64,000 nucleotides of DNA from Trypanosoma brucei (GCA_000002445.1 CM000207.1:992001-1056000); one strand, 5' to 3'. Positions 246 through 47,606 are shown, numbered from the stretch's first letter. Numbers and translations: made by a program. The notes: a model not told the origin generated them from the sequence alone.

Positions 246-356
246 CCTTATTTGCTGTCATCACTCTTTAATTTTATATTTGGGCTGATTCTTATAACCT
301 TGTCACTACTATTTATACATACCCTTGTATCTTACGTTAGATCACACTTCTTACCT

Positions 357-24985: not shown

Positions 24986-25959
24986 TCTAGTTAACTGTGG
25001 AGTGGTGCGGTCCACGCGCACACAGAAATGCCACTCACTTTGCTCCTTCATCCTTTTTTTTGTTTAATTAACTGCCACGACACTCACCAGAATTTTATGT
25101 TTCCACATCTTGTTTACTTGTTGTTTTTTATGATTTTGGAGTTCGTTGATTCCTCCACTGTAACTTATCACCGCGGCACCACTGCCCGACATATAACCGT
25201 TGAGCGAAGGGAGGAGGAAAATAGGAACGAAAAAGTACATCTCATGGCTTACTTATGCGCCTTATTACATATTGGTGTTTATGACTCATTGGGCTTCGTT
25301 CCTCATTCCTTTCTCTTCTCTTTTTTCTCTCTTCTAGTTTTAAGTGTAGTTTTTTTTTTGTCATTTATGTCTCGTTCTGTTTCTTCTTTTCCTTCACGCA
25401 ACTTCTCACGACTCCTGAGTGAGGTGTGATGCTTGTCATTTATTTAAATAAACTTCTTGTGGCAGAAAATGGGATGATGTGAGTGGCCTTTTTACTCCGG
25501 CTGCTTTGAAGAGGGTCACTTAAGTTGGCTCGGATGCAACGAAAGAAGAAAATTCTGAGGAGAAGTGACGCCGTGATGGCGACATGTGTTAGGAATATGG
25601 TGTTGTTGTTTGCGCCTTTTCATTTGACGAACATTAAGTTTAATTTTATTCTTGGGAGATGGGGGTGGGGGGTGGATTTCGATTGCGTGCAGCTGTAGGG
25701 ACCTCAGGTCCTGAGTGTATTTTGCCAGTCCTGACTAATATAATATTCGCACAATTAAGCATACGTATTATGTATATCTCAGCTGCTGTAGTCGTCCTGC
25801 TATTACTTTTGCTTTGCGTTTTGTTTCCATCTCACATATAAAATACAATTACCATCGTTGTCAAAATTGGAACGCACTACACGACTCATTGAGAACCTTT
25901 GTCGTAGCTGCCGCGGTCAATCGTGCTGCAGTAACTGTTTTTTTTTTTCTACCCCTGAC

Positions 25960-27960
25960 ATGTCAGTGAGCGGTGTGTTCAGCAAAGGCCGTGGCATTGG
26001 TCACGAGGCGGCCACCTCCATCCTTCGTTATATTCCACGTGCACGTGTACCATGGCAGCCAAGTCGCTTTGGGCGTGAGAATCTCACAGCCGCGGATATG
26101 GCGCGACTCTGGAGTCGGGGCCGATACCGTGACGGGCCTGGCAATTACAACAGCGGATACTGCACAGAGCGCACGCATGTGCTCGAAGAAAACACTGTCT
26201 CAATCATACCGAGGCGGGAATTGGAAAAATATATGCCGGACATTACAATCGGCCCGAAGGCATTAGTTACACCAGTTTCATTGATGAATGCACGGAACGG
26301 TCATCGCGTGACGCACGACCTGTTGCATTCATACGACCCACACATTGGTCGACTTGGTAAACCGGCTGTTGTTGATCATGACAACATTACCGTGGAGGAC
26401 CCCAACCGTGTTGGCCTTAATGCAGCGACACTTGACTGTAGGGGGCGTATTTATCGGTGGCTGCGCCGCGGCCCCTTCTTTCAGGTGGACAATTACTTCC
26501 GTCGGTCGGTGAAACTTAATCGAGACGGGACGCTTCCAACCGATTTTGTGCATGAGGCGCCGTTGATGCGCAAGATTATTCGGCTTGCACACCGTGGGCA
26601 TTTAAAGGCAGCGTGTGAAGAGTACCGTCGTGTAACGACAGTTCCACCCGTGGAGGTTTACCGTGCGCTAACGGCCTGCTGTGTACCGGGTGCCAAACTT
26701 GCAGATGCGGTGTCCATATTTGAGGATGGTAACTCGAAACTATTCTATGTGTCGCGAGATGGGGAGGTACTCCACAACCTCATGCGATGCGCCATTGCGG
26801 CACGGCATCGCGCGCGTATAATGTGGGTGTACAATGTAATGCGTGGTCGATTCTACGAAAACGTTGTTGTGCGCGCAGAAGTGGATCTCATATGGCGTTA
26901 CCGCATTGCAATGATCGCGCTTGAATACCTGCTCGACCACGAATGCGCTGAGGAGGCGGCCGCTATTTACAGCTATCTTGTTGAAGAAGAACTGTTGCGC
27001 TGCGATGTGCACGTCCGAGTCGGTCTCCACATGCGCGAGGCAATTGCAGCGGGGAAGCCAATAACGTTGAATGACGACGTAATGAATGCTACATCGCTTG
27101 TCAGGGATGCGACGGCCGTCGCACCTGAGGTGGCCCGTGAGCTGCAACGCCGCCACGCACAGACGCTTCAAAATAGCGCTGTTGAAGCCGTGGGCGCGGA
27201 AAATGTGAGAGAGGGATCCGCCCCTTGGTCTATTCTTGGTCCCCTCACGGCTATTGGACCAACAGCGGAGGATACCATGGTTTGGTTACAGCAACACTAC
27301 GGTGATGTCGATGTTATGAGTATTATGCGGTGGGCCCGTTTTAGGAAAGGGAAGGATTTGATGGCGAAGGACCGTCCACAGTATCTTGCGCGCGCCGCCG
27401 CATGGATTGAGCTCCTCAGCAAACGTAACCGTGAGATGGAAGAGGTGCCTTTGACCTACATGCGCAAATCTAAACCACTGGTGCTGGGCACGAACTCTAA
27501 CGTGCGGGTGGCCTGGCAAACACCGTTGATGAGAAGCGGTGGGCCACCAAGGCTGCTCGCCAGGGAGGAAGGCTACGTGTTTCACCACAGCAATAGTTCT
27601 CGCTTTGTAGAGGAAACCTACCGCCACCCGGGCGAATCGTTGCAGTCACGTTACCTGGCTCTTCAACCTCTGCACACGGAGGTATCTGTAAAAGAGGACT
27701 TTCAACGGCTCTATTACCAAGCGCAGAAGCATCACAAACAACAGGAACGTTTACTTCCTGTATCAACAGCAGCGATCCCGTCTCGTATCGTACACCATTC
27801 GGTGATGAGCGCTCTGCACGGTGTAAGTGGGAAAGGTGAGCCAGCAAACCGCAGCTTGTTCACTGGTAATAGGAGTAATGACAGTCATTCCAACACTGGC
27901 GTCGCTAGTGGTACCAGCGCCTGCACCGACGGTGCGGGAAGCGCGACTCCGGAGTTTTAG
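25960..27960 (+). CDS. Hypothetical protein of about 666 aa (possibly helical-repeat; function unknown).
   Basis: First ATG of a long + ORF (the track starts at TTG 25858). A T13 polypyrimidine run sits immediately upstream of the ATG, so the true start could lie further downstream. Confidence 0.55.
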   Translation: MSVSGVFSKGRGIGHEAATSILRYIPRARVPWQPSRFGRENLTAADMARLWSRGRYRDGPGNYNSGYCTERTHVLEENTVSIIPRRELEKYMPDITIGPKALVTPVSLMNARNGHRVTHDLLHSYDPHIGRLGKPAVVDHDNITVEDPNRVGLNAATLDCRGRIYRWLRRGPFFQVDNYFRRSVKLNRDGTLPTDFVHEAPLMRKIIRLAHRGHLKAACEEYRRVTTVPPVEVYRALTACCVPGAKLADAVSIFEDGNSKLFYVSRDGEVLHNLMRCAIAARHRARIMWVYNVMRGRFYENVVVRAEVDLIWRYRIAMIALEYLLDHECAEEAAAIYSYLVEEELLRCDVHVRVGLHMREAIAAGKPITLNDDVMNATSLVRDATAVAPEVARELQRRHAQTLQNSAVEAVGAENVREGSAPWSILGPLTAIGPTAEDTMVWLQQHYGDVDVMSIMRWARFRKGKDLMAKDRPQYLARAAAWIELLSKRNREMEEVPLTYMRKSKPLVLGTNSNVRVAWQTPLMRSGGPPRLLAREEGYVFHHSNSSRFVEETYRHPGESLQSRYLALQPLHTEVSVKEDFQRLYYQAQKHHKQQERLLPVSTAAIPSRIVHHSVMSALHGVSGKGEPANRSLFTGNRSNDSHSNTGVASGTSACTDGAGSATPEF

Positions 27961-29909: not shown

Positions 29910-32900
29910 ATGGGGAACGCACAGGACATTCCTAATTCATTCCGCCGTACCGTGGTTTCCCTGCATTACAGGGAAAGTCCTTTTTCTGGGGATGACGATG
30001 AAGTATCGCAACTTTGCCGAACGATATTCTGCACGCGTTTAACCGCTGACGAGTTTGCTTGTTATTGGACTGCGGAAGATGTCAGGCAGCTACGGCTCTA
30101 CCACCCGAATCGACTCGCCACCATTTTATTATTGGCTATGAGGCAGTTGGAGGACTTTGTTGCAATCAGCAGAGACCCAAATGAAAAGTGGGGTAACGAC
30201 AATCCTCTTCAGCACCCGGTGCGTAAGAGTACCTTTAGTGGCAGCGGTGCAACATCTGGAATAACGGAGGAATCCCCGCGACGGAGCGCGAAACGCAGGC
30301 CGCCAGTAGACTTCACCGCTGCAATCAACGCCCTTCGGCTCATTGCGGGGTCGCTGCCGTATTGTTTTGAAGATATCGACCTCTTGAGGGCAGTGGTGCA
30401 AAGTGACGAGGAAGAGGCATCCAAGGACGAGCTCAACGTCATCATTACCTCGCAGCGCACGCGTGAACTTATGGGAATGGACGACCGAACGGAGAGTCCA
30501 CTTGCCGCGGGTTTTGCCCACCACTTCTTTGTCCAAGGTGGTAAGTGCTTCATGAACAACGAGCCAGGAGCACACCGATGTTTCTACGCTGATTTATTAG
30601 ATGAAGAGAAACCTAACCCACCCACCACGCCGCTCGGTTTCCGTCTTGTCGAGCTACTGGTGAAACTTTTCTTCGTGCCCAAATTCTCACAAATGGAACC
30701 GATGAAAATGGCGCCGTCAATGATGGAGGAACTGCGGGGGAGCTTAGCTTATGACCTGAAATTGCTATCTCTGACGAGAGCGTTGGTGCCTCAAAACTTC
30801 GGTAGTACCGAGGATATTAACGAAGACGATGAGTGCTGGATGTTTTCCTTTGAGGGTACTTATGTCAAGGAAGCACGTAGCTTAGTGCTTCGCGCAATTC
30901 TACTGACCATCTCCGTACCCATATTTTACACGCCGTCATGCCTGAGCGACGCGCAAAGCAGGGAGCCCCAAGGGAATGAAGGCAGCTGCTCCCATGAGTC
31001 GTCAGGGGTGATGTATGAGGAAGTGAGTGATGTGATGCTTAGTGGGCTCTTCGACGTAAACGAGCGACCCTTGTTGGTGAAGTTTTTCGTACTCCTCCTG
31101 CATGTTGTGCGGTGCTGCCCGAAATGGCCTGTCACGGTTCCTTCTCTCCGTGGAATGTGGGCGGCGAGACCAACTCTCACAGCAGACAACGTTGACGTGC
31201 TCAGTCATTCACTTGCAATACTCGCCGCTGGTTTTTACACCGGTCCATACGTTGCTTCCCAGCGGTACGTCCATCGGGGAGAAAAGCCCGTGCGCGTGCC
31301 GAGCGTTCTGTATGGAATCATGCATCAAGTGATTGGTTCGAATTTCGTTCCGTGGAAGATCTTACAGGGCACGGGACTGGAGGGAATTCCTGCTTCACCT
31401 GTTGTTGCTGATCCATATGAGGTGGGATCGTCTGGAATGGGATGTAGCAGTGCCACGAAAGAGCCGCATGATTGTGACGGTCTACCAGATTATGCAAGGA
31501 GCTTTGCCGATGGCGTGCTGGCTCTACTGGAGGCACCTTTGATAGCAGGCAGTTCAAGCATTCCGAAACCAGAGGCACCGTGCTCATCGTTGGGTCTGCA
31601 TCTAATGTTGTGGCTGTTGCAGCACAGCGAAGCAGCCATTAACGCTGTTGGACGCAAACCACGATTATTGTTGGTTCTCGTACAGACTATTCATGTCGTC
31701 GGCACCCAATACCCGAGTTATCTTGGCGAAGGTCAAATCGCATTACTTTGCTTTCTTCGACTACTCCGGCACCAACCGTTTCTACGACTTCTATTGGAGC
31801 ACCTCCCCACGGATGGAGACGCAGACCTCACACGTGAGGGAAAGGTGAACGCCACACAATTTTTGCGTGAGCTCCGAGTCGCAATGCCAACTTTACCGAA
31901 TAAACTTGTTATCACGTCCAATATGAGCCCAGACAAGAGACGACAAATCGAGTGGCAGTCAGACGAGGTGCTTTGCATCCGTACATACTGTGATGTTCTT
32001 GTACTCACGCTGTGTTACGTAGTGGCACCCGGTTCCCCTTCTTGGTTCAGTAATTTGCACAGAACGGCTGTCGAGGTGCTGCACACGCTGCAAGTATACC
32101 TTCCTAAGGCAACAGGGCGGTTCCCGCTTGACGTTCTTAGTGAACACATCGTGTTCGAGGTTGCCGGAAGTTTCAACCACATCTGTTCCCCTCGTGTACT
32201 GATGACGGGGGCTGACGCGCAGCTAGCCTGTTTTAATATGATCAAGGCGGTTTCTTTTATGCTTGAGGCAGCGATTGCACACATTAACGGTGGCAGCGGT
32301 GCAGCACTACTTAAAAATCAGGAACATGAGGATGTGGAATGCAAAGGTGGGGAAAGTAATATCGTGGCGCTTCTTTGGTTGCTGGTTACCCAAGGGGGGT
32401 TGTCAGAACTTACAAAACACATACAAACACAGTTGGACAGCAAAACCAAAGCGGCTGCTGGTGGTTCCTCTTATGCCGAGCCCTGCAGTGGCAAACTAGG
32501 TGATGGTACGGGGGTGGGAGTTTTAAAAGAACTGTTGCACAGTGATGAGTTTAACTTTCTTCGTCGTGTGACTAATGAAGTAGCTCAAAAGTTAAAGGAT
32601 GCACTAGAAGATTCATCGGGAAGGGGCAATGGGACAGAGAAAACAACAGAGGTCGATATAGAACCATGCCACGAGGGGGAGAGATGGATGAAGTCAAGTG
32701 GTAAACGTCTCTGGTTTGAGCGTGATGATAAGCTTTTTCAAAAAGTGTTGGAAGTCGGTTCGAGCGTAGTAAATGAGAAAGAACAGGAACGCCGTGAGAA
32801 GGGGAGGTTGGGAGGAGAATTCGTCACTTCCCCTGTTGCGTTGCGTGAGGCGTCAGTGCCTTTTGAAGGTGCCGCTAAGCGATGGCTGCTCCGCCAGTTG

Positions 32901-32975
32901 TGGGTGCAGGTACATCGTCTGAACACCGGGCCACCAGTGTTTGATTTCCGCACCGCCACCATTATCCGGGAGTAA
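29910..32975 (+). CDS. Hypothetical protein, 1021 aa.
   Basis: ATG-initiated long + ORF preceded by pyrimidine-rich tracts (29742-29770). No motif recognised. Confidence 0.65.
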   Translation: MGNAQDIPNSFRRTVVSLHYRESPFSGDDDEVSQLCRTIFCTRLTADEFACYWTAEDVRQLRLYHPNRLATILLLAMRQLEDFVAISRDPNEKWGNDNPLQHPVRKSTFSGSGATSGITEESPRRSAKRRPPVDFTAAINALRLIAGSLPYCFEDIDLLRAVVQSDEEEASKDELNVIITSQRTRELMGMDDRTESPLAAGFAHHFFVQGGKCFMNNEPGAHRCFYADLLDEEKPNPPTTPLGFRLVELLVKLFFVPKFSQMEPMKMAPSMMEELRGSLAYDLKLLSLTRALVPQNFGSTEDINEDDECWMFSFEGTYVKEARSLVLRAILLTISVPIFYTPSCLSDAQSREPQGNEGSCSHESSGVMYEEVSDVMLSGLFDVNERPLLVKFFVLLLHVVRCCPKWPVTVPSLRGMWAARPTLTADNVDVLSHSLAILAAGFYTGPYVASQRYVHRGEKPVRVPSVLYGIMHQVIGSNFVPWKILQGTGLEGIPASPVVADPYEVGSSGMGCSSATKEPHDCDGLPDYARSFADGVLALLEAPLIAGSSSIPKPEAPCSSLGLHLMLWLLQHSEAAINAVGRKPRLLLVLVQTIHVVGTQYPSYLGEGQIALLCFLRLLRHQPFLRLLLEHLPTDGDADLTREGKVNATQFLRELRVAMPTLPNKLVITSNMSPDKRRQIEWQSDEVLCIRTYCDVLVLTLCYVVAPGSPSWFSNLHRTAVEVLHTLQVYLPKATGRFPLDVLSEHIVFEVAGSFNHICSPRVLMTGADAQLACFNMIKAVSFMLEAAIAHINGGSGAALLKNQEHEDVECKGGESNIVALLWLLVTQGGLSELTKHIQTQLDSKTKAAAGGSSYAEPCSGKLGDGTGVGVLKELLHSDEFNFLRRVTNEVAQKLKDALEDSSGRGNGTEKTTEVDIEPCHEGERWMKSSGKRLWFERDDKLFQKVLEVGSSVVNEKEQERREKGRLGGEFVTSPVALREASVPFEGAAKRWLLRQLWVQVHRLNTGPPVFDFRTATIIRE

Positions 32976-34508: not shown

Positions 34509-36689
34509 ATGGGCAGTGATAGTAAATCTAGTAAGTCCAAGGACAAGAACTTCTCATCAAAGGGTAAAATTGAGAAGTATAACAAGGATGGTACCGAAAC
34601 AATTTTGATCATGGGGCGTCCCTTTCGTATTGTGCAGAGGTTAAGTGAGAAGGTGCTTAACCCGGAGGCGAAAAGCTCGAAGAAAAGCAGCAAGAAAGCT
34701 AAGGATGTGTACTCCTACATTGTGGTTGTTGAAAACATTGAAGCTTTACCAATGTTTGCCAGGTATGTCGTTGTGAAGCGTACCTTTTTCAAGATAGACG
34801 AGGTGTTGTTGGCTCATCGGGAGCCTGAGATTTTGAATCGCGTTCGCGATAAGGGAATCCTGCACGTGTTCCACAGTGAAGTAACACGGAATGATGGGCG
34901 TTTGGGAACAACCGTGGCGATGGAGTACTGCCCCGGAAGTTTGGAACAGCGCCTGCAGCAGGAGACTCGGATGTTAGAAAGTGAAGTGGTACAAGTGTTG
35001 CTAGCGCTGGCTAGTGTGTTGGGTTACTTGCACTCTAGGCAGCCCCCGGTTGCACACCGTAACATTAATCCAAGCAATGTGTTAATTCACTCGGAGTCGG
35101 CAGGAGCGAGCGCATACCGCCTCTACAACTTTAGAAGTGCCATGACGGAGGCGTACCACTGCGAGAACCACGAGGAGGTAGTGGCGGCCATGGAAGACTT
35201 TGCCCGCTACACCACGGCAGGGTACCGGGCGCCTGAAATGTTAGACCCAAGTAGTCACAAGCGTATTGATGAACAGGTAGATATGTGGGCTCTTGGTGTG
35301 CTGCTGTACTACACAATGTACCAGCGCCTGCCCTTCACGGATGCATGCTGGGGGCTGGCAAGAAAACCCAAGTTACGCTACCCCGTGGAAGCTGAAGTGT
35401 GGTACACGGGCTCACTACGCATCGTGCTTGAGCATCTTCTTGAACCAGATCCGGAGAAGAGGTGGGATGCGTTTGCTCTCATCAACTTCATGCGTTTCGA
35501 CAATGACCTATGCAGACACATTGGACCCTTCTGCTTCTCGCAGACTGAGCGGCCCGAGGGATGGGAACCGCAGGACGTGAAGGTAATTGGCCGCCCAGTT
35601 CCAGCCAAAGTTCTCCCGGAGAGGTTGCGAAATACTGGCCAGTCCGACGATCCGGCTGCTGCAGCGCGTGACAACAGGGACGAAGCGGCTGCCACCTCCG
35701 TCAAGAGCCGCACAGCGGCACAGGAGTCTGGAGATAATGATCAAATGGTTCTCAAGGCAGTAACTGCGCTGAGTTCAGATACCGCTTCCACAGATCCCGA
35801 GGTGCTAGCCTACCGTGAAAAGCTCATTCGTGAACAGGAGGAGGCATGGCAAGTGGCAGAAAGCGCACACAAAAAGCGGGATAAGGAAGACAAGGATGGG
35901 GCGACCTCTGGACCGGCAGATGTTGATTCATTGTTTGGTCCAACTGAAAAGAAGGAAGCTGTCAAGGAAAACAAGGCATCTGCTATTGACGACTTATTTG
36001 GTGGCATGGAGACACAACCATCACAGTCTCAAAAACCAACAACGGATGACCTCTTTGGAGGCGCCTCTACAGCTACTGCGAGCAACCAAATCCCACCCCA
36101 GGGGTCCCAAGTTGGAGCTAACGACAGTTGGAAGGATGATCTCTTCGCTGCGCCACCTCAGCAACCACAAATGCAACCTCAACCGGCCTTTCCAATGGCA
36201 GCTGACAGTAGTTGGAGCACCGGAGCACCAACATCGGTGCCAATGAATCCAACCGGCGGCATGATGGGTCAACAACAGGCCCCCATGGGATGGGGAAATG
36301 GAGTAACAGCTCCGGGTTTCCAACCAATGCAAACTCCACAAATGCAACAACAAGTTCCTGGTGGATGGGGAAATGGAGCAACAGCTTCGGGTTTCCAACC
36401 AATGCAAACTCCACAAATGCAACAACAAGTTCCTGGTGGATGGGGAAATGGAGCAACAGCTCCGAGTTTCCAACCAATGCAAACTCCACAAATGCAACAA
36501 CAAGTTCCTGGTGGATGGGGAAATGGAGCAACAGCTCCGGGTTTCCAACCAATGCAAACTCCACAAATGCAACAACAAGTTCCTGGTGGTGCCCCCGGTT
36601 TCATGGGCGGAAACGACCTATTCCAAAGGCCACAGCAGCAACAGCCACAGCAACCAGAGAAGGACCCCTTCGCCAGTCTCTTCAAGTAA
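34509..36689 (+). CDS. NAK/AAK1 (Ark/Prk)-family protein kinase-like protein, predicted pseudokinase. Long low-complexity tail with DLF/DPF adaptor or clathrin-binding motifs and 4 x 25-aa Q/P/M-rich repeats.
   Basis: Kinase subdomains: HRNINPSNVLI aligns to AAK1 HRDLKVENILL, so the catalytic Asp is replaced by Asn. YRLYNFRSA aligns to VLCDFGSAT, so DFG is replaced by NFR. The NAK-specific activation segment ...GYRAPEM... is conserved, followed by DMWALGVLLYYTMYQRLPF. Tail motifs: VDSLFGP, IDDLFGG, TDDLFGG, KDDLFAA, NDLFQ, DPFASLF. Confidence 0.8.
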   Translation: MGSDSKSSKSKDKNFSSKGKIEKYNKDGTETILIMGRPFRIVQRLSEKVLNPEAKSSKKSSKKAKDVYSYIVVVENIEALPMFARYVVVKRTFFKIDEVLLAHREPEILNRVRDKGILHVFHSEVTRNDGRLGTTVAMEYCPGSLEQRLQQETRMLESEVVQVLLALASVLGYLHSRQPPVAHRNINPSNVLIHSESAGASAYRLYNFRSAMTEAYHCENHEEVVAAMEDFARYTTAGYRAPEMLDPSSHKRIDEQVDMWALGVLLYYTMYQRLPFTDACWGLARKPKLRYPVEAEVWYTGSLRIVLEHLLEPDPEKRWDAFALINFMRFDNDLCRHIGPFCFSQTERPEGWEPQDVKVIGRPVPAKVLPERLRNTGQSDDPAAAARDNRDEAAATSVKSRTAAQESGDNDQMVLKAVTALSSDTASTDPEVLAYREKLIREQEEAWQVAESAHKKRDKEDKDGATSGPADVDSLFGPTEKKEAVKENKASAIDDLFGGMETQPSQSQKPTTDDLFGGASTATASNQIPPQGSQVGANDSWKDDLFAAPPQQPQMQPQPAFPMAADSSWSTGAPTSVPMNPTGGMMGQQQAPMGWGNGVTAPGFQPMQTPQMQQQVPGGWGNGATASGFQPMQTPQMQQQVPGGWGNGATAPSFQPMQTPQMQQQVPGGWGNGATAPGFQPMQTPQMQQQVPGGAPGFMGGNDLFQRPQQQQPQQPEKDPFASLFK
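36288..36590 (+). repeat. Four tandem 75-bp in-frame coding repeats (25-aa unit GWGNGATAPGFQPMQTPQMQQQVPG) inside the kinase-like gene.
   Basis: The unit starts at 36288, 36363, 36438 and 36513, a period of exactly 75 bp. Copies differ by 1-2 nt (V/A, G/S). Confidence 0.9.
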
Positions 36690-37854
36690 TGTTTTACATG
36701 ACTGCAATACTGGCACAGAACAGCATCATACGTCACCCCCCCCCCAAAAAAAAAGGGGGGGTTAGTTGGGGTACATTTTTTCTTAACAAAAAAAAAGAGA
36801 AAGGTAAAAGAAATAAAGAAATACCAACTAACAATTAAGAGAAGGAAAGGAACCCGCAGGTCATACCCTCTTTATTCCACCTCTCTTTCCTTCTGTTTTG
36901 TTCTGTTCGGTGTTTAAACCTGATTCAACATGTTCAATTTTCTGCTGTGTCTCCCCATTCTCAATCACATCCACCTCTTTTTTTATTTTTATTTTTAGTA
37001 TCAGTGTTTCATTTTTTTTTCTTTTTTCGTTTATCATCACTTTATTATTATTATTATTACGTCCCTCCGTTGTTTGTGCTTTTTGATATACTTGCTAATG
37101 CTTTGAAGTGTGTGAGGGGAAGGGGAGGAGGGAGAGAAAAAAGAAAAAATGAAGAGGGGAGGGGAGGGGGATTTATCAAGAGAGAACAAACAAAAGGAAA
37201 GAAACGGTTTTGTTTTCTTTTTGAGAAAATAAATAAATAATGAATAACATATGTTTTATCATAACCTCCATTTGCGGATTCCAATGAAGGGCGTGGCAAA
37301 ATCCATAAGGAAGAGGGTTGTGCGCATGTGTTTCTTTTTATTATTATTATTTGCTTACGTTCATAAAAAGTAGAGGAATGGAATGGAAAGAGATGGGAAG
37401 TGGAGGGAATGAATGAATGAATGAATTGGAAACCGAAATGATTAGAATAAAAAAAAATGAAGGAAAAAGCAGGTGGTTTACCGCCGCTCATAGACCAAGC
37501 ATTTACATACGTGCATAGATACAAAAAAAAAAGAAATATATAAATATATATTTATATACATGTACTGGTGTGTATTAATGTTTATTTGTATGTATTTTTT
37601 ATATATTTTGGTGTGCGTACGTTTGCGTGTGTGAGCGAAAGGGGGAGGGGGGAGGGGGGAGAGCAGACGGGGACGAAAAGGGGTGGAAATATAATGTTTA
37701 CTTTTTTTTTTCTTCTTCTCTCTCTCTCTTTAAAACTTTAATTTCCGTTAGGAAAAGAGGGGGAAAAAAGATAACGTGTGGGTATGAGAGTTTATTAGGA
37801 ATCCTGATTGGTGTTGGTCGGTTCCGTGTGTGTGTGTATGTATGAATGTATGTG

Positions 37855-37876
37855 TCTCTCTCTCTCTCTCTCTCTT
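37855..37876. repeat. (CT)n microsatellite, preceded by (GT)n at 37826-37838.
   Basis: ctctctctctctctctctctct. Confidence 0.9.
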
Positions 37877-39544
37877 GTGGCCAGCCTCATGGTGGGACCG
37901 CGCGTGGAAGAAAGAAAAAAAGAAAAGGAAAAGAGGAAAGAAACAAAACAAATAGGAAAGAAAATGAAATGAAAGAGTTTTTAGTACCCATCACTGCCTT
38001 ATGGGTGGATTCGTCACTAGCCATCGTCCTGCGCACTCTTTTTTTTTTTTGAAAAAAAAGATTTTCTTCTCTTCCTTTTCATCTCTTTTCATATGGGTTT
38101 ATTATTGCTCCTCATTCCACACATACGCAAACAAATATATATATATATAATCCCTTCCTTTCACTTCACAAAGCAATTCAGGGATTCCATTTGCCATCAA
38201 TGCGAACTTGCTAGGACAACATTTTCTTTTTAAAAAAAAACAAATTGCAGGGGCACGGTGTGTCTGTTCGTACCGGGTTACCCCTTTTTGTTTGTCAATT
38301 ATGCACAAATTTGTGCACTGCTTACGCCATACAAACATTATTATTATCATTATTATCATGCAGTGATTTTCTCTCTTGTCTACAAAGAAGAAGAGGCACA
38401 TGTTCGTGGTTTTTTTTCAATTTTTTTTGTTGTTGTGTGTTTGTATTTAACTTCGCTGTCGTGGATGCATGCGAGTTATCGTCTTGGAGGTCATAAAACG
38501 CAAGGACGGAAATAACAAAAATAAACAATACCAACGCCACAAATGCTGAAATACCGTCTTTATTCCCTTCATTTATCTTTCCCTTGTTTTTTCTTTAAAA
38601 AATTATTTTAAGTTGTTGTTGTTTTTTTCCTATAAATATATTTATTTATATTTCCTGTCGTTACGGCGGTCACGGCATTATTTGTGTGGATCGATTGTCA
38701 CTCATATGTCGAGGAAAGAAAGTTGAAGGTATGAAGATGAACTGAGAGCAGAGATTGGGAAATAATAATAGTAATAATAATGAAAAGAAAAGAAAAGAAA
38801 ACTCAGAAGGCGTCATTTTGTGTAAGGTCCGGGAACTTGTATCCTTTATTATCATTATCACTATTATTATTATTACTGTGCTTGAAAAAAAAAATTATAT
38901 GTATTTATTTGGTTTTTTTCCTCTTTTGAAAGAAGAAAAAATACCAGAGAAAACAAAAAAAAGGAGGACGAAGAGAAAAATCGTATTGTCAACTCACTTG
39001 CTATTTGATCTGAACGTGTGTAAGAGATGAGGAAAATGGACTTTAATGAGTCAACATATTTCAAAACTGAACAAAAAAAGAGAAAAAAAAAAAAAGAAAG
39101 ATGCTCGACACGATAAAGGGAGTGAAGAAGAACCAAAAGGAGGAAAAATATTTAAAAAAAGAGAAGAAAAGAAACGAGAAGAGAAGAGAAGATAAAAGAA
39201 TATGCGTCGGAAACAACAAAAACAACAATTTTTTTTAAAAAAGGTAAAACAGCACAAAAACAAAAAAAGTGAGAAGGCTGCGTGACGGTTACTTGGGAGT
39301 CGAAAACTGCTATTGGCATGTTGCATCATTCCATTCAGTGTTACATGGACCCTGAGGTGCCACGCGCATTATTCCTATTGAAACAAATCTTTTTTTTTTG
39401 TAGTTAATCTTATTAAATATGTGTTTTCTTTTTTTTTTTCTTTTTTCTTTTTTGATGTTTTTAAACTCCCCTCTACACCGCGATTATTCGCGTCTTCTGA
39501 TGCCTTCCAACAAGGCCTACAAAGCTGCGCGTGTCTTTTCTGTT

Positions 39545-39575
39545 TGTTTTGTTTTTGTTTTTGTTTTTGTTTCTC
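39545..39575. repeat. (GTTTTT)n microsatellite.
   Basis: tgttttgtttttgtttttgtttttgtttc. Confidence 0.85.
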
Positions 39576-41613
39576 TCTCTCTTTTTGCTCGTAGTGAAAC
39601 AACAAATGAAACGGAATATTTGCTGGACCTCACGTGTTTCTTTGCTATTCTTCTTTCTTTGTTTATTTGGTGTTTGTTTATGTTGTGTGGAGTTGAGACC
39701 AAAAAGAGATGAGAAGTGTGTAATCATTCTCAGCTTTTATTGCTCAGTCTCTTTCTGTTTTGTTAACGCTTTTCTTTTTTTTTTTTTATTGACCTTCCTT
39801 AACTTTCGTTTTTATTTTATAAAAAAAAACAAAAAAGAAGAAATTATATCTATCTTTCTTTCCTTTTCTCTTTTTTTTTTATATCCTCTTTTCGTACAAT
39901 TCCACTGCCCTTTCAATCTCTTTTACCCTTTCTTTTTCTTGTTGTTGTTCCTCTTTCCCACTTGTGTGATGATATCATATACGCTGCCTATTTACAACTA
40001 TTTTTTTTTCCTTCTTATTTCTCTCTTTTTTACTTTTCTTTTATTTTTTTTTTAAAACAAACAAATATGCGCTGATGTCAAGTGGAGACGGAAACTGAGG
40101 TGCTAAAAGGCAAGTTTTTAAACGTACCTGAAGCAACTAGTATCACTTTCTTCTCTATTTTCATAAAGAAAAAAAACATTGTAGTAGTTGACATATATAC
40201 ATATATCAGTCTAGCTGTTCTTTTGGGTTCTGAATAGGCAGTTAGAAGTACAAACGAATAAATTTTGTAAAAATAAAAAAAAACAGTACAAAAGCATCGG
40301 GGGGAACGGAGCGAGTTTGCATCTTCATCCGCATAAAAATCCATTTATACGTACATATATATATATATGCCAGAATCCTTGCGGTTTTATAGGATAACAT
40401 TTATCTCCTTTGGTTCGGCATTATTTTGTGTTATAATATTAAATTGCAGAGTGGCGTCGTGTATCCAAGAGAAAATGGGTGGTGAAAGTAGTGCCCCCCA
40501 ACCGACTAATGATTCGTCCGGCAATGACTTCAGCAACAATGGCAATAATAGCGATAATAATAATTCCAATAGCAGTATTAAAAACGACAATTACAATAAA
40601 CCAGTGCCTGGAGCTGAAGGGCAAAATGACGGGTTGCATTTCCCCCAGCGTCTCGTCTGTCGCCTGCCGGAACGAAATTTTCCACTTCCGGTTTTAACCC
40701 TCAAGGAAGGTCACGGGGTTGCATCAAATACAACTAAGAAGTAACACACATGACAACACGCGTTTGTGCATTTGTTTTGTCTGTAATGTAATGTTAATGA
40801 AATGAAATGAAATAGGGAGGAAAGAGAAAATAGCGTGTTATTAGCGTAGATATGACTCAGGAAAAGGGGAAATGAAGTATTTACAAGAGTGCCATTTCCT
40901 CCCCCCCCCTTCCCTCGTCGTTATTATTTTTACTATTGTGTCGTTATCGCTTTTTTTTTTCTTTTTCACCGTTTTTGGTATTGTTGTTGTTTGTTTTTAA
41001 TTCTTTTGGGGGGGTTCGGTTGAACCCTATGCGTCTCGATATCAAATCCAAGAGAATAAAACAAAAAGGGAAGTTAAGGAGCCGGAGGGCTCTTTTCAAG
41101 GCCCAGCTATGTTTTCTCTTGCAAGGGTACGTATGCGCTTCCTTTGATTTCTTTTTCTGTATGCCGTTTTATGCACGTTCTCCCACTTCGGTCATAATTA
41201 AAAAACAAAGATTCGCATCATTGGTTATTGATAATTTTCCTTCCCTTTTTGTTTTCCCTTTTTTATATTGGTTGCGGTCGCCCAACTTTCGGTACCCCAA
41301 AGTGAGTCTCAAACATCAGCTACACTCTTCCCGTTCGTGTGAAACATTTTGATGTTCCTGCCTTTATTTTTTGGTGATTTTCCCTCCCAAGTTGAATTCG
41401 TTACTTGTTATTACCACTGTTATTCTTATCATCACACTATTATTAATTGCCTTTTGTTGTTTTTGTTGTTGCTTTCGGGTTGCCTCCCATTCTAACACGG
41501 GTGGGCATGTCATGCGAGAGAGAGAGAGAGACGCCAAGACGCGTGCGGGAGAGGGAGTTGAGTAACACCCGCTAAAAACGAAAAAAAAAAAAGGGAAAAG
41601 TTAGCAGCGCCTT

Positions 41614-43782
41614 ATGGTTCGTGTGAAGGAAAAGGCTCGGAAGGGTGACGATGCGTTCAAGACACGGAAACAAAAAGTCGGGCGGAAAAAACTCGCCCCG
41701 GCAACAGCCACACGGGCGGAGGTACACGCCCGCACACTTCGCGTAACGACACCAACAGCAATCACTCGAGGGATTCTCGAGAGCGAGGCCGTAAGAACGG
41801 GGGAGAACTGCCAAACTCATAAAGGTGAGAAAGAAAAACGTGTGGTGTCGGCGGACCAATTACACCGAGACTTTAAGGAACATCTTGCGGGCACGAGGCA
41901 TTACAAAAAGGTGGTTCGGTCCACATCCTTCGCATCACTCACGAGGGCCGTCGCTGGGCACTTCTCAGCGGTCGGAAGGGCGGATGACTCATCAGCAATG
42001 GGGAATGAAACGCAACTGAGCCCATTGGAGATTTTGTACGCCTACACGGGAGCACTCGATGCCATGACGGACACTGATGATGACGTCCGACGCGCAGCTT
42101 TGGGCACGTTGAAGGTCATTTTGTATCGACGCAAGCCGGCAGCACAAATCGATGAGCAGGGGAGTGGTGCCATGGAGGCCGGTGGCGGTTCCGCTACGGC
42201 GTTTAACGTGGACCAGGCACGCGCCGCTTTGCGTGTTGTGGATGTAACATTAACCCATGCAATGGTGTCGGTGCGGCGGTCTGGAGTGGAACTGTTACAA
42301 CTCATCTTACAGGTGCAACCACTCAGCGTTAGGGCAGTGTTGAGTGAATCAACCACATGGGTGAAAATGGCAGGTCGTATCTCCAGCATCGTTCTGCCCA
42401 GCACGAGTAACGGAAGCGGCAACAGTCCATCGACAAAAATGTTTCATGTGGTTGCTGACCTACTCGAAACAATGATACCTCTGCATCGAAGTGAGAGTGA
42501 TGCGTGGAATCAGGGGTGCCCGCGAGCGCGACATGCTGTGGATGAAGTGGTTGACAAACAAGGCGAAAGTAACGTATCACTCTCTGCTTTGGTTGCTCAA
42601 TTTTTTGATGAGTGCAGTCCTCGGTGGTGTGTGGCATGGAAGGAACTCATGGAGTTGCGCGCTGCATTATTCCGTGATGTGGAATGGGTGAGACACGCTA
42701 CAGCGCTGGCACGTGCGTTTGCCTGCTGTGCGATGTACCTGTGGGACCATCGCCTGCTTGGCCGAAAGAACTCGCGGCTCATGCACCACCTCTTCACTGT
42801 CAAAGTACCCTTCACTATGCATGAACTGATTGCTCCCAGAGACCCCACTGCAGAAAGCGGTTGTGGGGTTGGTAATGGCAGTAAATGGCGCGTTGAATTA
42901 GCCAACGCCATAGCCAACGCTTGTCTTCCACTCGCCGCCGCAAATGATGACACCTGGGAAGTGTTGCATAACTTCCTCTCGATTAGTTTTCACTGTGCAA
43001 AGGATTCGGACTCCTCAGATGGGACGTCTTCCGCTGGTGAAAGCGGTAAATCCAGGCGTGCTACCCAACTTGTTGGGCCCGTGCGTACTCTGCGAACAGC
43101 GGTGGTACGCCTTCATCAGGCTTTACTTCCACGTTTGCTTCCGATTGCATCACCCCTTCTTCAAATAGTTATGCAAGCGACTAATCTGAGTGACAGTAGC
43201 GAAACAGATCGGTTGGCGTTAGTAGACGTGCTGCTGATGTCGGCGGATGTGTTTTCTTCATTTGTAACCTCGCAAGTCGCCGTGCAAAATCCTCAGAACA
43301 TCCGATACCTTCGTGACGTCGTTTTGGTGGTTCCTCGTTTTTTTTTCGCCCTGCGCGGTCTCCAGATGGAAGCCGCCTGCCTCGACCGCATCGTCTTCTC
43401 TTTCCTGTATCCGTTGTGGAGGGTGGTAAGCAGCGGTCATCCGCTACTGTCTTCACCAATGCCAAACAAATTACCAGGCGGCGCGCCGTCTTCCCCACAG
43501 GTTAATAAAGAAAACAAGCAAAAGATAACAGCTTTGCAACTGCTCGCTCGTTCCTTAACGTCCCTGTTTGAGATTCGCGTACCTGACAGTGGCGGTGAAG
43601 GCACATGCAGATCTGTTGCAGGTGTTCTGCAGCGTTGTAGCGACAGGACGGTGGAGTTAGCAGTGCACACATTGTTTTATGTGGGCGCGACGGTGCCGCC
43701 CACGAGCTGGACACGTGAAAACAATGTACTTTCCCTTCCAACACTCGTGGACACTTTGCCGCGACCCGGTGTTTGTGCGTGA
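41614..43782 (+). CDS. Hypothetical protein, 722 aa, with a basic N-terminus.
   Basis: ATG-initiated + ORF. N-terminal K/R-rich segment (MVRVKEKARKGDDAFKTRKQKVGRKKL). Leucine-rich helical body. No motif recognised. Confidence 0.6.
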   Translation: MVRVKEKARKGDDAFKTRKQKVGRKKLAPATATRAEVHARTLRVTTPTAITRGILESEAVRTGENCQTHKGEKEKRVVSADQLHRDFKEHLAGTRHYKKVVRSTSFASLTRAVAGHFSAVGRADDSSAMGNETQLSPLEILYAYTGALDAMTDTDDDVRRAALGTLKVILYRRKPAAQIDEQGSGAMEAGGGSATAFNVDQARAALRVVDVTLTHAMVSVRRSGVELLQLILQVQPLSVRAVLSESTTWVKMAGRISSIVLPSTSNGSGNSPSTKMFHVVADLLETMIPLHRSESDAWNQGCPRARHAVDEVVDKQGESNVSLSALVAQFFDECSPRWCVAWKELMELRAALFRDVEWVRHATALARAFACCAMYLWDHRLLGRKNSRLMHHLFTVKVPFTMHELIAPRDPTAESGCGVGNGSKWRVELANAIANACLPLAAANDDTWEVLHNFLSISFHCAKDSDSSDGTSSAGESGKSRRATQLVGPVRTLRTAVVRLHQALLPRLLPIASPLLQIVMQATNLSDSSETDRLALVDVLLMSADVFSSFVTSQVAVQNPQNIRYLRDVVLVVPRFFFALRGLQMEAACLDRIVFSFLYPLWRVVSSGHPLLSSPMPNKLPGGAPSSPQVNKENKQKITALQLLARSLTSLFEIRVPDSGGEGTCRSVAGVLQRCSDRTVELAVHTLFYVGATVPPTSWTRENNVLSLPTLVDTLPRPGVCA

Positions 43783-46976: not shown

Positions 46977-47606
46977 ATATTTTCATTTTACTGGCGGGTC
47001 CCCGTCTCTGCACACCTGAGGAGGAGGAGGAGGAGCCTCAGCTCTTAGCAGGGCCAAGATTCCCTTATCCGTTTCAGCTTATCGCGATTACAGAATTATT
47101 GTCAATTTCATCCAATGACACTGACTTTGGTGGGATAATCTCTGCAGTGTGCAGTTGTTGGTCATTGTTTTTTTTTATTTTTCTCCTTACATGCACGGCG
47201 TAGCTGTCCCCGCGCGGTAGCAAAGTCTTCTGGGTGCGGTGGTCATTGATGGTCACTGCGTCGTGCTTTTTTTCCTCCTATTGGTACCTCTTTTCCCCCC
47301 TTTCCCAAAATTCGTTGTGTTCCCTTTTTTTTTTCTCTTCTTGCTTTTATCCCACCAGCCCCTCAAGTAAGGAGTGTGCCATAACTCACCGAATACTCTG
47401 CTCTGGATACGACACCGTACGAGACCTCCGTATAGCGTACTACAAGCACACGCTCACACCATATATAAACGTACGGAAACGCAAAGCATTTGATTTACCA
47501 AAAGAGAAGGGGGCGAAAAAAAAAATAGTTAAAGGTTGTGGTTGTTTGCACGTGGTGTGCACTGCGGCACTGAGCCATCGTGAGTCTTTTACCTTTTTTT
47601 TTCTAC

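What the first reader, a model, noticed from the sequence alone, without database searches (positions are those of the whole stretch)
34509..36689. AAK1/Ark-Prk-like kinase with both catalytic Asp motifs mutated and a tail loaded with DLF/DPF endocytic motifs
The kinase fold is clearly NAK-family (the GYRAPEM activation segment is diagnostic). However, HRD is HRN and DFG is NFR, so this is a predicted catalytically dead pseudokinase. The roughly 390-residue tail contains at least five D-[LP]-F motifs (VDSLFG, IDDLFGG, TDDLFGG, KDDLFAA, DPFASLF). These are the short linear motifs that bind AP-2 alpha/beta appendages and clathrin in opisthokont endocytic accessory proteins. A pseudo-AAK1 that still carries adaptor-binding motifs suggests a scaffolding role in clathrin-mediated endocytosis, which in T. 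brucei is AP-2-independent. That would make the retention of these motifs notable.
Basis: partly seen in the sequence, partly recalled or inferred. Interest (0 to 1): 0.65.

Follow-up and report, generated by a model that had tools for sequence, protein, structure and literature searches.

The report
Known trypanosome AAK1-like pseudokinase, TbAAK1L1

Summary
ORF 34509-36689 (+, 726 aa) encodes a NAK-family kinase fold. Its best sequence and fold matches are AAK1, BIKE, GAK and STK16. HRD reads HRN, DFG reads NFR, the catalytic-loop Lys is Asn, and the glycine-rich loop is replaced by a K/S-rich insert. The beta3 Lys and alphaC Glu are kept. The 391-residue Q/P/A/G-rich tail has five strict D[LP]F motifs against 0.13 expected by chance.

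The gene is Tb927.9.6560. Published tagging primers for TbAAK1L1 hit the window at its 3' end. The literature already reports:
- the pseudokinase class (Jones 2014);
- clathrin co-purification, flagellar-pocket localisation, the D-x4-N mutation and clathrin motifs in the tail (Manna 2017);
- HRN, loss of the DFG Asp, the conserved C-terminal DPF and a knockout with pocket swelling and cargo-uptake defects (Black 2023).

- DLF is an AP180-type clathrin terminal-domain motif, so keeping it without AP-2 is unsurprising.
- The DFG Asp is lost in all kinetoplastid orthologues, including those of AP-2-bearing lineages.
- YRAPEM alone does not diagnose the family.

Small additions, all suggestive only: both FxDxF matches are broken in the two salivarian sequences, a Trp-Gly element is amplified there as a tandem repeat, and the HRD Asp was lost repeatedly.

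Verdict: already known, low interest.

The parts
34509..36689 (+). Complete CDS of TbAAK1L1/TbAAKL (Tb927.9.6560), 726 aa plus TAA stop
   Evidence: ORF list. An in-frame stop lies immediately upstream of the ATG. It is 100% identical to the T. brucei TREU927 'protein kinase, putative' P0001. The published TbAAK1L1 tagging primers hit 36073-36090 (+, exact) and 36669-36686 (-, 1 mismatch, ending on the last sense codon).
34509..34610 (+). N-terminal 34 residues, absent from the NCBI TREU927 model (P0001 starts at Met35) but conserved in orthologues
   Evidence: F15, S16, K20, G28, E30 and I32 are invariant or at least 90% conserved across orthologues.
34581..35513 (+). Kinase-like (NAK-type) domain, about residues 25-335
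   Evidence: Pfam PF00069, E = 4.4e-23. The AlphaFold2 model is confident over about 25-335 except 49-66. The top 29 Foldseek PDB hits are all AAK1, BIKE, GAK or STK16, E = 4e-21 to 4e-18, TM to target 0.74-0.83.
34641..34712 (+). K/S-rich insert (LSEKVLNPEAKSSKKSSKKAKDVY, residues 45-68) where the glycine-rich ATP-phosphate loop should be
   Evidence: No GxGxxG anywhere in the protein. Pfam starts only at profile position 45. This stretch is variable in orthologues and has pLDDT below 50 for residues 49-66.
34776..34778 (+). beta3 lysine K90 (VAIK equivalent, 'VVVKR'), retained
   Evidence: Invariant in 20 and in 23 sequences.
34821..34823 (+). alphaC glutamate E105, retained
   Evidence: Invariant. 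It aligns with the Glu of AAK1 'ckREiqim'.
35055..35078 (+). Degenerate catalytic loop HRNINPSN: catalytic Asp to Asn (N185) and loop Lys to Asn (N187), with the terminal Asn190 kept
   Evidence: Alignment to AAK1 HRDLKVEN and to P0027 HRDVKVEN. Translated coordinates checked.
35127..35135 (+). NFR in place of DFG (metal-binding Asp to Asn, Gly to Arg)
   Evidence: The Asp is missing in all 25 kinetoplastid orthologues (N in 23, S in one, G in one) and kept only in the distant relative P0027.
35169..35210 (+). Predicted helix 221-234 (HEEVVAAMEDFARY) between NFR and APE, matching the NAK-specific activation-segment C-terminal helix
   Evidence: DSSP helix 221-234 in the confident model. The helix is described as a NAK hallmark in PMC4780864. 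D230 and R184 are invariant.
35229..35237 (+). APE motif within GYRAPEM
   Evidence: P242, E243 and M244 are invariant.
35484..35609 (+). Strongly conserved post-kinase segment, residues 326-367 (NFMRFD...FCF.QTE.PEGWE.Q...R..P.K), with no counterpart in the AAK1 alignment
   Evidence: 17 invariant columns between N326 and P365, and K367 at least 90% conserved. The AAK1 alignment ends at residue 327. pLDDT is below 50 from residue 340.
35769..35888 (+). Conserved island in the tail (DPE..YRE.IIREQEEAW), predicted helix 430-460
   Evidence: L421 is invariant; D429, P430, I440, Q443 and A450 are at least 90% conserved. Helix 430-460 appears in the low-confidence full-length model.
35925..35936 (+). 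DSLF (473-476), a degenerate T. brucei-specific DLF-like motif
35988..35999 (+). DDLF motif 1 (494-497, AIDDLFGG), the family-wide conserved DLF site
   Evidence: D495, L496 and F497 are at least 90% conserved. Most non-salivarian orthologues read F[DE]DLF here.
36045..36056 (+). DDLF motif 2 (513-516, TTDDLFGG)
   Evidence: It is shared with T. congolense and a few other orthologues.
36135..36146 (+). DDLF motif 3 (543-546, WKDDLFAA), the second family-wide conserved site
   Evidence: L545 and F546 are at least 90% conserved.
36213..36230 (+). Conserved Trp-Gly-type element (WSTGAP; W-G-[ST]-G-A-P in most orthologues)
   Evidence: W569 is at least 90% conserved. Per-orthologue list.
36288..36589 (+). 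Tandem repeat, 75 bp x 4.0 copies at 97% identity, encoding 4 x 25 aa GWGNGATAPGFQPMQTPQMQQQVPG (residues 594-694)
   Evidence: TRF. Translation. T. congolense has 5 x 21 aa of a related unit, and non-salivarian orthologues have a single WG site here.
36612..36623 (+).
36660..36686 (+). Extreme C-terminus KDPFASLFK: a DPF plus a terminal LF
   Evidence: K718, D719, P720, F721, L724 and F725 are at least 90% conserved. Most non-salivarian orthologues read DPF[AE]DLF. The conserved DPF is already noted in PMC10952953.

Best explanation
This is TbAAK1L1 (also TbAAKL, Tb927.9.6560), the only Numb-associated-kinase (NAK) family member reported in T. brucei, and it is a pseudokinase.

Shown here:
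- The N-terminal 335 residues adopt an AAK1/BIKE/GAK-like kinase fold, including the NAK-type helix inside the activation segment.
- The parts needed for phosphotransfer are gone. The glycine-rich loop is replaced by a variable K/S-rich insert. The catalytic Asp and the loop Lys are both Asn (HRNINPSN). The metal-binding Asp is Asn (NFR).
- The beta3 Lys, the alphaC Glu, the HRx Arg and the acidic residues of the activation-segment helix are invariant.
- The 391-residue Q/P/A/G-rich tail carries four DLF motifs, one DSLF and a terminal DPFxxLF. Two DLF sites and the terminus are conserved across kinetoplastids.

From the literature: the protein co-isolates with clathrin, sits on clathrin structures at the flagellar pocket, and its deletion swells the pocket and disturbs lectin uptake.

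Inferred mechanism: the tail works like the AP180 disordered region. [quoted passage not shown] The dead kinase domain, held in an active-like shape, then serves as a binding module for a still unknown partner rather than as an enzyme. Candidates are a mu-subunit-like or other coat component.
For: Identity. The protein is 100% identical to the TREU927 protein P0001. The published TbAAK1L1 primers match at 36073-36090 and 36669-36686.

Fold and family. Pfam Pkinase. AAK1, BIKE and GAK are the best PDB sequence hits, about ten orders of magnitude ahead of the first non-NAK kinase. In the AlphaFold2 domain model (mean pLDDT 77.1, most blocks of the kinase core above 80), the top 29 Foldseek hits are all NAK kinases. 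Helix 221-234 lies between NFR and APE, matching the NAK hallmark helix (PMC4780864).

Dead site. HRN and NFR are confirmed in two independent alignments. There is no GxGxxG. The DFG Asp is absent in all 25 kinetoplastid orthologues, and the HRD Asp was lost in at least four separate groups.

Retained scaffold residues. K90, E105, R184 and D230 are invariant.

Tail. D[LP]F occurs 5 times against 0.13 expected, with 0 of 5000 shuffles reaching 5. DLF occurs 4 times against 0.03 expected. The sites are conserved. Residues 453-718 have no predicted structure.

Motif meaning. DLL/DLF motifs bind the clathrin terminal domain multivalently in AP180 (PMC11246429).

Experiments by others. Clathrin co-isolation and pocket localisation (PMC5399782). 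Knockout phenotype (PMC10952953). Classification as 'Pseudo Other/NAK' with a growth-arrest RNAi phenotype (PMC3894213).
Against: - No binding experiment ties the DLF motifs of this protein to clathrin. The published co-isolation could be indirect.
- In AP180, mutating one or two D(L/I)(L/F) motifs did not measurably change clathrin binding (PMC5004861). Such motifs also bind AP-2 appendages promiscuously, so a motif match does not identify the partner.
- RNAi of TbAAKL gave no growth or uptake phenotype in one study. The knockout is viable and its defect is partial and clone-dependent. Any scaffold role is therefore dispensable or redundant.
- Catalytic inactivity is predicted, not measured. 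Some kinases lacking canonical residues keep activity.
- The partner of the kinase-like domain is unknown.
- The full-length structure model is poor (pLDDT 40), so disorder of the tail is only weakly supported by it.
Confidence: 0.7

Rival explanations
1. The tail motifs mainly engage appendage ('ear') domains of the adaptors that T. brucei retains, such as the AP-1 gamma/beta1 ears, or another ear-like domain, rather than the clathrin terminal domain directly. Clathrin co-purification would then be indirect, through AP-1. This partly overlaps the best explanation, because the motifs are promiscuous.
For: All AP-1 subunits were recovered in the same clathrin isolation as TbAAKL. [quoted passage not shown] The DPF-containing C-terminus is nearly invariant, including in AP-2-less species. 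Mammalian NAK kinases act on AP-1 and AP-2 medium chains (cited).
Against: There is no match to the gamma-ear consensus patterns I scanned in the T. brucei tail. TbAAKL co-localises preferentially with flagellar-pocket clathrin rather than with Golgi/endosomal clathrin, where AP-1 would be expected. No direct binding data exist either way.
Confidence: 0.2
2. The protein keeps a non-canonical catalytic activity, using atypical phosphotransfer or nucleotide binding with compensating residues. It would then still regulate coat components enzymatically.
For: The beta3 Lys, alphaC Glu and catalytic-loop Asn190 are retained and the cleft-lining residues are under strong conservation. Published analysis finds predominantly negative selection on the gene. 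From my own knowledge, several proteins first called pseudokinases were later found active.
Against: Four separate catalytic elements are lost at once: the G-loop, the HRD Asp, the catalytic-loop Lys and the DFG Asp. The HRD position varies freely among orthologues (D, N, A, H), which argues that it is no longer needed.
Confidence: 0.07
3. The gene is a decaying relic of the lost AP-2 system with no specific function, and the motif enrichment is residual.
For: AP-2 is absent from salivarian trypanosomes. One RNAi study saw no phenotype. The RELAX parameter suggested relaxed selection but was not significant (k = 0.85, p = 0.073).
Against: The ORF is intact and highly conserved, with many invariant columns across kinetoplastids both inside and outside the kinase fold. 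Motif enrichment is far above chance. The knockout and two RNAi studies show growth or pocket phenotypes. The degenerate DFG predates AP-2 loss.
Confidence: 0.03

Closest known systems
TbAAK1L1 / TbAAKL (Tb927.9.6560) as described by Manna et al. 2017 (PMC5399782) and Black et al. 2023 (PMC10952953)
   Same: It is the same gene. The protein is identical to the TREU927 protein, and the published primers map to the 3' end of this ORF. HRN, loss of the DFG Asp, P-loop degeneration, the disordered tail, the C-terminal DPF, clathrin motifs in the tail, clathrin association and a role at the flagellar pocket are all already reported.
   Different: Nothing is different in substance. The main texts do not spell out the DLF motifs (0 occurrences of 'DLF' in both papers), the Trp-Gly tandem repeat or the FxDxF pattern. 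Black et al. consider the Leishmania orthologues possibly functional, whereas the DFG Asp and G-loop are missing there too.
Human AAK1 and BIKE (NAK family kinases)
   Same: These are the best sequence and fold matches. They share the activation-segment helix, the YRAPEM segment, and the same architecture of N-terminal kinase domain plus long disordered tail with endocytic motifs. From my own knowledge, the human AAK1 tail is Q/P/A-rich.
   Different: Identity is only about 24%. The human enzymes are active kinases with intact G-loop, HRD-L-K and DFG. Human AAK1 has two DPF motifs and a WNPF for AP-2 alpha, whereas this protein has one DPF, no WxxF and no NPF. The conserved post-kinase segment 326-367 has no counterpart in the AAK1 alignment.
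AP180/CALM disordered clathrin-assembly region (multivalent DLL/DLF motifs)
   Same: Both have several D-L-[LF] motifs, often followed by Gly (AP180 DLFGDAF, DIFGDLFD; here DDLFGG), spread through a long disordered low-complexity region. In AP180 they bind the clathrin terminal domain weakly and additively.
   Different: There is no ANTH lipid-binding domain; the folded module is a dead kinase. There are only 4-5 motifs, and direct clathrin binding by this tail is untested.
Other endocytic pseudokinases of T. brucei, e.g. NRP1 (PMC9633767)
   Same: NRP1 is a pseudokinase reported to facilitate endocytosis in the bloodstream form (title and abstract).
   Different: It is a different gene (Tb427tmp.160.4770). 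I did not compare the sequences.

Membership tests
NAK (Numb-associated kinase) family: AAK1/BIKE/GAK/STK16, Ark1/Prk1 | Eukaryotic protein kinase fold | tested here: met
   Pfam PF00069, E = 4.4e-23, above the gathering score. The AlphaFold2 model shows a bilobal kinase.
NAK (Numb-associated kinase) family: AAK1/BIKE/GAK/STK16, Ark1/Prk1 | Closest similarity to NAK members rather than to other kinase families | tested here: met
   Sequence: AAK1 5e-24, BIKE 5e-21 and GAK 6e-15, against 5e-14 for the first non-NAK kinase, MELK. Fold: the top 29 Foldseek hits are all four human NAKs, then Aurora. The non-kinetoplastid database hits are fungal Ark/NAK-BIKE kinases. The published phylogeny places it with the NAKs (bootstrap support 100 for the split between NAK-family and Nek-like kinases).
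NAK (Numb-associated kinase) family: AAK1/BIKE/GAK/STK16, Ark1/Prk1 | Large alpha-helical insert within the activation segment (activation-segment C-terminal helix) | tested here: met
   Predicted helix 221-234 lies between NFR (207-209) and APE (241-243), in blocks with pLDDT 83-89. Defined as a NAK hallmark in PMC4780864. This rests on a predicted, not a solved, structure.
NAK (Numb-associated kinase) family: AAK1/BIKE/GAK/STK16, Ark1/Prk1 | Catalytic competence (G-loop, HRD Asp, catalytic-loop Lys, DFG Asp) | tested here: not met
   HRNINPSN, NFR and no GxGxxG. It is therefore a degenerate, pseudokinase member of the family by descent, not a working NAK enzyme.
Pseudokinase (lacks at least one of beta3 Lys, HRD Asp, DFG Asp) | Substitution of canonical catalytic residues in a correct alignment register | tested here: met
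   Two of the three are missing (HRD Asp and DFG Asp), and the beta3 Lys K90 is kept.
Pseudokinase (lacks at least one of beta3 Lys, HRD Asp, DFG Asp) | Absence of phosphotransfer activity or nucleotide binding | not testable with these tools
   This needs an in vitro kinase or nucleotide-binding assay. None is reported in the papers read.
AP180-type multivalent clathrin-binding disordered region | Multiple D-L-[LF] motifs in a disordered region, above chance | tested here: met
   DLF x4 against 0.03 expected, with 0 of 5000 shuffles reaching 4. Tail residues 453-718 have no secondary structure and pLDDT below 50. Disorder is also reported.
AP180-type multivalent clathrin-binding disordered region | Motifs conserved in orthologues | tested here: met
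   D495-L496-F497, L545-F546 and the KDPF..LF terminus are at least 90% conserved across 20 sequences. The other sites are lineage-specific.
AP180-type multivalent clathrin-binding disordered region | [quoted passage not shown] | not testable with these tools
   Only co-isolation with clathrin heavy chain is published.
AP-2 alpha-appendage ligand (as human AAK1) | DP[FW] motif(s) | tested here: met
   There is a single DPF at 719-721. One occurrence is not above chance on its own (P = 0.16), but it is nearly invariant in orthologues.
AP-2 alpha-appendage ligand (as human AAK1) | FxDxF or WxxF motifs | tested here: not met
   There are none in the T. brucei or T. congolense tails. One or two FxDxF matches are present in most non-salivarian orthologues.
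AP-2 alpha-appendage ligand (as human AAK1) | AP-2 complex present in the organism | not tested
   AP-2 is reported absent from salivarian trypanosomes. A 64-kb window cannot test this.

The most novel reading that the evidence does not exclude
After AP-2 was lost in salivarian trypanosomes, the AAK1L1 tail was remodelled rather than merely retained.

1. Both F-x-D-x-F matches seen in most other orthologues were broken by single substitutions. [LV]FDDLF became IDDLF, and DPF[AE]DLF became DPF[AS]SLF. FxDxF is the AP-2 appendage-type motif. The overlapping clathrin-type DLF/LF cores were kept.
2. T. brucei gained extra DLF-like sites (DSLF at 473, NDLF at 702).
3. A conserved single Trp-Gly element was amplified into a tandem array: 4 x 25 aa in T. 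brucei and 5 x 21 aa in T. congolense.

On this reading the tail shifted from mixed AP-2/clathrin binding to higher-valency AP-2-independent coat binding, and the W-G-x-G element would be an undescribed coat-binding motif.
Probability: 0.2. Interest if true: 0.4.

Novelty: already known. Interest (0 to 1): 0.15.

Why it matters
T. brucei bloodstream forms depend on very fast clathrin-mediated endocytosis that runs without AP-2. How coats are nucleated and regulated there is still open, and TbAAK1L1 is one of the few conserved coat-associated proteins left. The gene, its pseudokinase nature, its clathrin association and its loss-of-function phenotype are already in the literature, so this finding adds no new object.

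What remains useful is modest:
- a motif-level map of the tail (which DLF sites are ancestral and which are lineage-specific);
- the point that DFG and G-loop degeneration is clade-wide and predates AP-2 loss;
- two testable hints, the FxDxF erosion and the Trp-Gly repeat amplification in Salivaria, for anyone dissecting how this scaffold binds the coat.

Tried and rejected
1. Exact look-up of the 726-aa protein found nothing. The database copy (P0001) starts at Met35.
2. I tried twice more to widen orthologue sampling, to reach T. vivax, T. grayi, Bodo and more Leishmania. One search used the kinase domain alone and one used a 12-sequence profile. Together they added only six sequences (P0024-P0029). 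The FxDxF/AP-2 correlation therefore rests on two salivarian sequences and a single AP-2 loss event. Sequences from unknown taxa (P0016, P0029) also lack FxDxF, so I do not claim it as a result.
3. A full-length AlphaFold2 model was too poor (pLDDT 40) to say whether the conserved post-kinase segment 326-367 or helix 430-460 docks on the kinase domain.
4. Scans of the tail found no canonical clathrin box L[IVLMF]x[IVLMF][DE], W-box, NPF, WxxF, FxDxF or gamma-ear patterns. I therefore dropped the idea that DDLFGGM is a gamma-ear motif; the FGG context is also not conserved in orthologues.
5. Rfam and tRNA scans of the whole window found nothing.
6. I considered that HRN/NFR might be an alignment-register artefact. 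Two independent alignments reject this.
Full report
**1. What is in the sequence**

An in-frame stop sits directly upstream of the ATG, and the ORF ends in TAA. All other ORFs of at least 250 aa in the window but one (which lies inside another ORF) are also on the + strand. This fits a trypanosomatid polycistronic unit.

Pfam finds a protein kinase domain at residues 102-324 (E = 4.4e-23). Only profile positions 45-257 are matched, so the N-terminal glycine-loop part of the model is not recognised.

**2. The kinase-motif observation**

phmmer against all PDB sequences ranks AAK1 first (5e-24), then BIKE (5e-21) and GAK (6e-15). The first non-NAK kinase, MELK, scores 5e-14.

The printed AAK1 alignment places HRNINPSN on HRDLKVEN and LYNFRSA on LCDFGSA, with high posterior probabilities. 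A distant relative found later, P0027, has intact motifs. It aligns without gaps across the same stretch: PPVAHRNINPSN/PPVAHRDVKVEN and LYNFRSA/LCDFGSA.

Besides the two Asp-to-Asn changes:
- The catalytic-loop Lys is Asn.
- The DFG Gly is Arg.
- There is no GxGxxG anywhere.
- Where AAK1 has its glycine loop, this protein has a K/S-rich insert (residues 45-68). The insert is variable among orthologues and of low confidence in the model.
- The beta3 Lys (K90), the alphaC Glu (E105), the HRx Arg (R184) and D230 in the activation-segment helix are invariant.

**3. Fold**

I built an AlphaFold2 model of residues 1-379 from a 23-sequence alignment. Mean pLDDT is 77.1, and most 10-residue blocks of the kinase core are above 80. 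The top 29 Foldseek hits in the PDB are all four human NAK kinases (AAK1, BIKE, GAK, STK16), with E-values of 4e-21 to 4e-18 and TM-scores to the target of 0.74-0.83. Aurora kinases follow.

The model has a helix at 221-234, between NFR and APE. [quoted passage not shown] In AAK1 a Glu of that helix salt-bridges to the HRD Arg and stabilises the active-like state (PMC4780864).

The family assignment is therefore sound. It rests on whole-domain similarity and this helix. It does not rest on 'GYRAPEM', which is not unique to the family: from my own knowledge, CMGC kinases such as CDK2 and ERK2 also have YRAPE.

**4. The tail**

After residue 335 come 391 residues rich in Q, P, A and G (13, 11, 11 and 10%).

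Strict D[LP]F occurs five times:
- DDLF at 494, 513 and 543;
- NDLF at 702;
- DPF at 719-721.

Composition-preserving shuffles give 0.13 on average, and 0 of 5000 reach five. DLF alone occurs four times against 0.03 expected.

The count of five still stands.

The tail also holds a 75-bp x 4.0 tandem repeat at 97% identity (36288-36589). It encodes 4 x 25 aa, GWGNGATAPGFQPMQTPQMQQQVPG.

In the full-length model the tail (453-718) has no secondary structure and pLDDT below 50. That model is poor overall. Disorder of this region is also reported in the literature.

**5. Identity of the gene**

The protein is 100% identical to 'protein kinase, putative' of T. brucei brucei TREU927 (P0001), which starts at Met35.

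Black et al. 2023 give the primers they used to tag TbAAK1L1 (Tb927.9.6560) at its C-terminus. The gene-specific part of the forward primer matches the window exactly at 36073-36090. The reverse primer matches at 36669-36686 with one mismatch, ending on the last sense codon. The gene is therefore TbAAK1L1, also called TbAAKL.

**6. What is already published on it**

- Jones et al. 2014 list Tb927.9.6560 as 'Pseudo Other/NAK', with growth arrest on RNAi (PMC3894213).
- Manna et al. 2017 recovered it in a cryomilling clathrin-heavy-chain isolation. [quoted passage not shown] They showed co-localisation with clathrin puncta at the flagellar pocket. They reported the D-x4-N mutation in AP-2-less trypanosomes and T. 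grayi. They saw no RNAi phenotype (PMC5399782).
- Black et al. 2023 showed it is the sole NAK homologue in salivarian trypanosomes. They described the HRN change, replacement of the DFG Asp by Asn in all AAK1L1 orthologues, P-loop changes and a conserved C-terminal DPF. They reported a second paralogue (AAK1L2) that Salivaria have lost, and predominantly negative selection. Their viable knockout grows slowly, has a swollen flagellar pocket and shows altered lectin uptake (PMC10952953).

A search for newer work on AAK1L1 or TbAAKL found nothing further.

**7. Comparison across orthologues**

I collected 25 kinetoplastid orthologues plus P0027.

- The DFG Asp is absent in all 25: N in 23, S in one and G in one. 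It is present only in P0027, which also keeps HRDVKVEN.
- None of the aligned orthologues shows a glycine-rich loop in the consensus.
- The HRD position varies. It is D in T. cruzi, T. theileri, T. melophagium and the Leishmania-like clade. It is N in T. brucei, T. rangeli, P0003 and P0008. It is A in T. congolense. In a third deep clade the motif reads [YF]RN or YRH.
- On a neighbour-joining tree these states fall in at least four separate groups, and T. rangeli (N) is sister to T. cruzi (D).

My reading is an inference. Metal and nucleotide binding was probably already compromised in the ancestor of the AAK1L1 clade, before AP-2 was lost. After that the catalytic Asp drifted. This agrees with Manna et al.'s remark that inactivation predates AP-2 loss. 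It goes somewhat further than Black et al., who regard the Leishmania orthologues as possibly functional.

**8. What the motifs mean**

[quoted passage not shown] All of them bind weakly and additively. DPF and FxDxF are the AP-2 appendage motifs, although NMR shows considerable promiscuity (PMC11246429). Mutating one or two such motifs does not measurably change clathrin binding (PMC5004861).

The tail here is therefore best described as clathrin-type. Its retention in an AP-2-less organism is not paradoxical and fits the published clathrin co-isolation.

Two DLF sites (494-497, 543-546) and the KDPFxxLF terminus are at least 90% conserved across kinetoplastids. The sites at 473, 513 and 702 are lineage-specific.

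Scans found no clathrin box, W-box, NPF, WxxF, FxDxF or gamma-ear pattern.

**9. Small observations beyond the papers (suggestive only)**

(a) FxDxF erosion. In most non-salivarian orthologues the first site reads [LVIF]F[DE]DLF and the terminus reads DPF[AE]DLF. Each then contains an FxDxF overlapping the DLF. In T. brucei and T. congolense both are broken by single substitutions (IDDLF; DPFASLF and DPFSSLF) while the DLF/LF cores remain. This is what one would expect if an AP-2 appendage contact had become dispensable. However, two sequences from unknown taxa also lack FxDxF, one deep clade never has the first one, and AP-2 was lost only once.

(b) Trp-Gly amplification. Non-salivarian orthologues have two single Trp-Gly elements, for example GWGTGAP and SSWGNSAP. 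T. brucei has 1 + 4 and T. congolense has 1 + 5, the extra copies arranged as tandem repeats of related units. No known motif matches this element.

(c) Conserved post-kinase segment. Residues 326-367 have 17 invariant columns, no counterpart in the AAK1 alignment and no confident structure. This may be a lineage-specific interface.

(d) Start codon. The 34 N-terminal residues missing from the NCBI model are conserved in orthologues, so the ATG at 34509 is the likelier start.

**10. Mechanism and rivals**

The best-supported picture has three parts. The dead NAK domain is held in an active-like conformation; the Lys-Glu pair and the helix-to-Arg anchor are retained. It acts as a binding module. 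A multivalent AP180-like DLF tail tethers it to clathrin at the flagellar pocket.

- Shown here: the fold, the degenerate site, and the enrichment and conservation of the motifs.
- Shown by others: clathrin association, localisation and the loss-of-function phenotype.
- Inferred: direct DLF-to-terminal-domain binding, and a non-catalytic binding role for the kinase-like domain.

Three rivals remain:
- The tail binds the AP-1 ears rather than clathrin. This is plausible and not exclusive.
- The protein keeps residual atypical catalysis. This is unlikely, given four lost elements and free variation at the HRD position.
- The gene is a functionless relic. Conservation and the phenotypes argue against it.

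**11. Verdict**

Interest is low. The only headroom is the tail-remodelling idea in section 9.

Noticed in passing
window 34509-34610: The NCBI TREU927 protein model (P0001, 692 aa) starts at the internal Met35. The 34 residues upstream are conserved in orthologues (F15, S16, K20, G28, E30, I32), and an in-frame stop lies just before the ATG at 34509. The longer ORF is therefore the likelier true start.
   Followed up: partly
window 36288-36589: A 75-bp x 4.0 tandem repeat at 97% identity lies inside the CDS and encodes GWGNGATAPGFQPMQTPQMQQQVPG x4. T. congolense has 5 x 21 aa of a related unit, and other orthologues have a single Trp-Gly element here. The function of the conserved W-G-x-G element is unknown.
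   Followed up: partly
window 35484-35609: The post-kinase segment (residues 326-367) is as conserved as the kinase core across kinetoplastids. It has no counterpart in the AAK1 alignment and no confident predicted structure.
   Followed up: partly
P0027 (database protein, 544 aa, Logan assembly, taxon unknown): This more distant relative (35% identity) keeps intact HRDVKVEN and DFG, has a shorter tail with ALDDLF, and ends in LDHLFES. It may represent the active ancestral state of the AAK1L1 lineage, or a sister lineage.
   Followed up: partly
window 243-1796, 2261-3787, 4256-5809 (+): Three similar-sized ORFs (517, 508 and 517 aa) sit head to tail. The first gives a sub-threshold Pfam MFS_1 match (28.3 bits against a cutoff of 33.4), so this looks like a tandem array of transporter-like genes.
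   Followed up: no
window 12069-14990 (+): A 973-aa ORF combines an N-terminal lysine-methyltransferase match (Methyltransf_16, residues 84-158) with a GDP-dissociation-inhibitor/Rab-escort-type match (GDI, best stretch residues 614-703). This is an unusual domain pairing, if the ORF is a single gene.
   Followed up: no
window 36690-41613: About 4.9 kb downstream of the gene has no ORF of 250 aa or more. GC drops as low as 0.33, against about 0.5 in the coding parts of the window. There are no Rfam or tRNA hits. It is presumably a long 3' UTR plus intergenic region.
   Followed up: partly
window 18359-22921, 25858-27960, 29910-32975, 41614-43782, 47580-49265 (+): Several large neighbouring ORFs (561-1520 aa) have no Pfam match at E <= 0.001. 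The 2550-aa ORF at 49614-57266 was not scanned.
   Followed up: no
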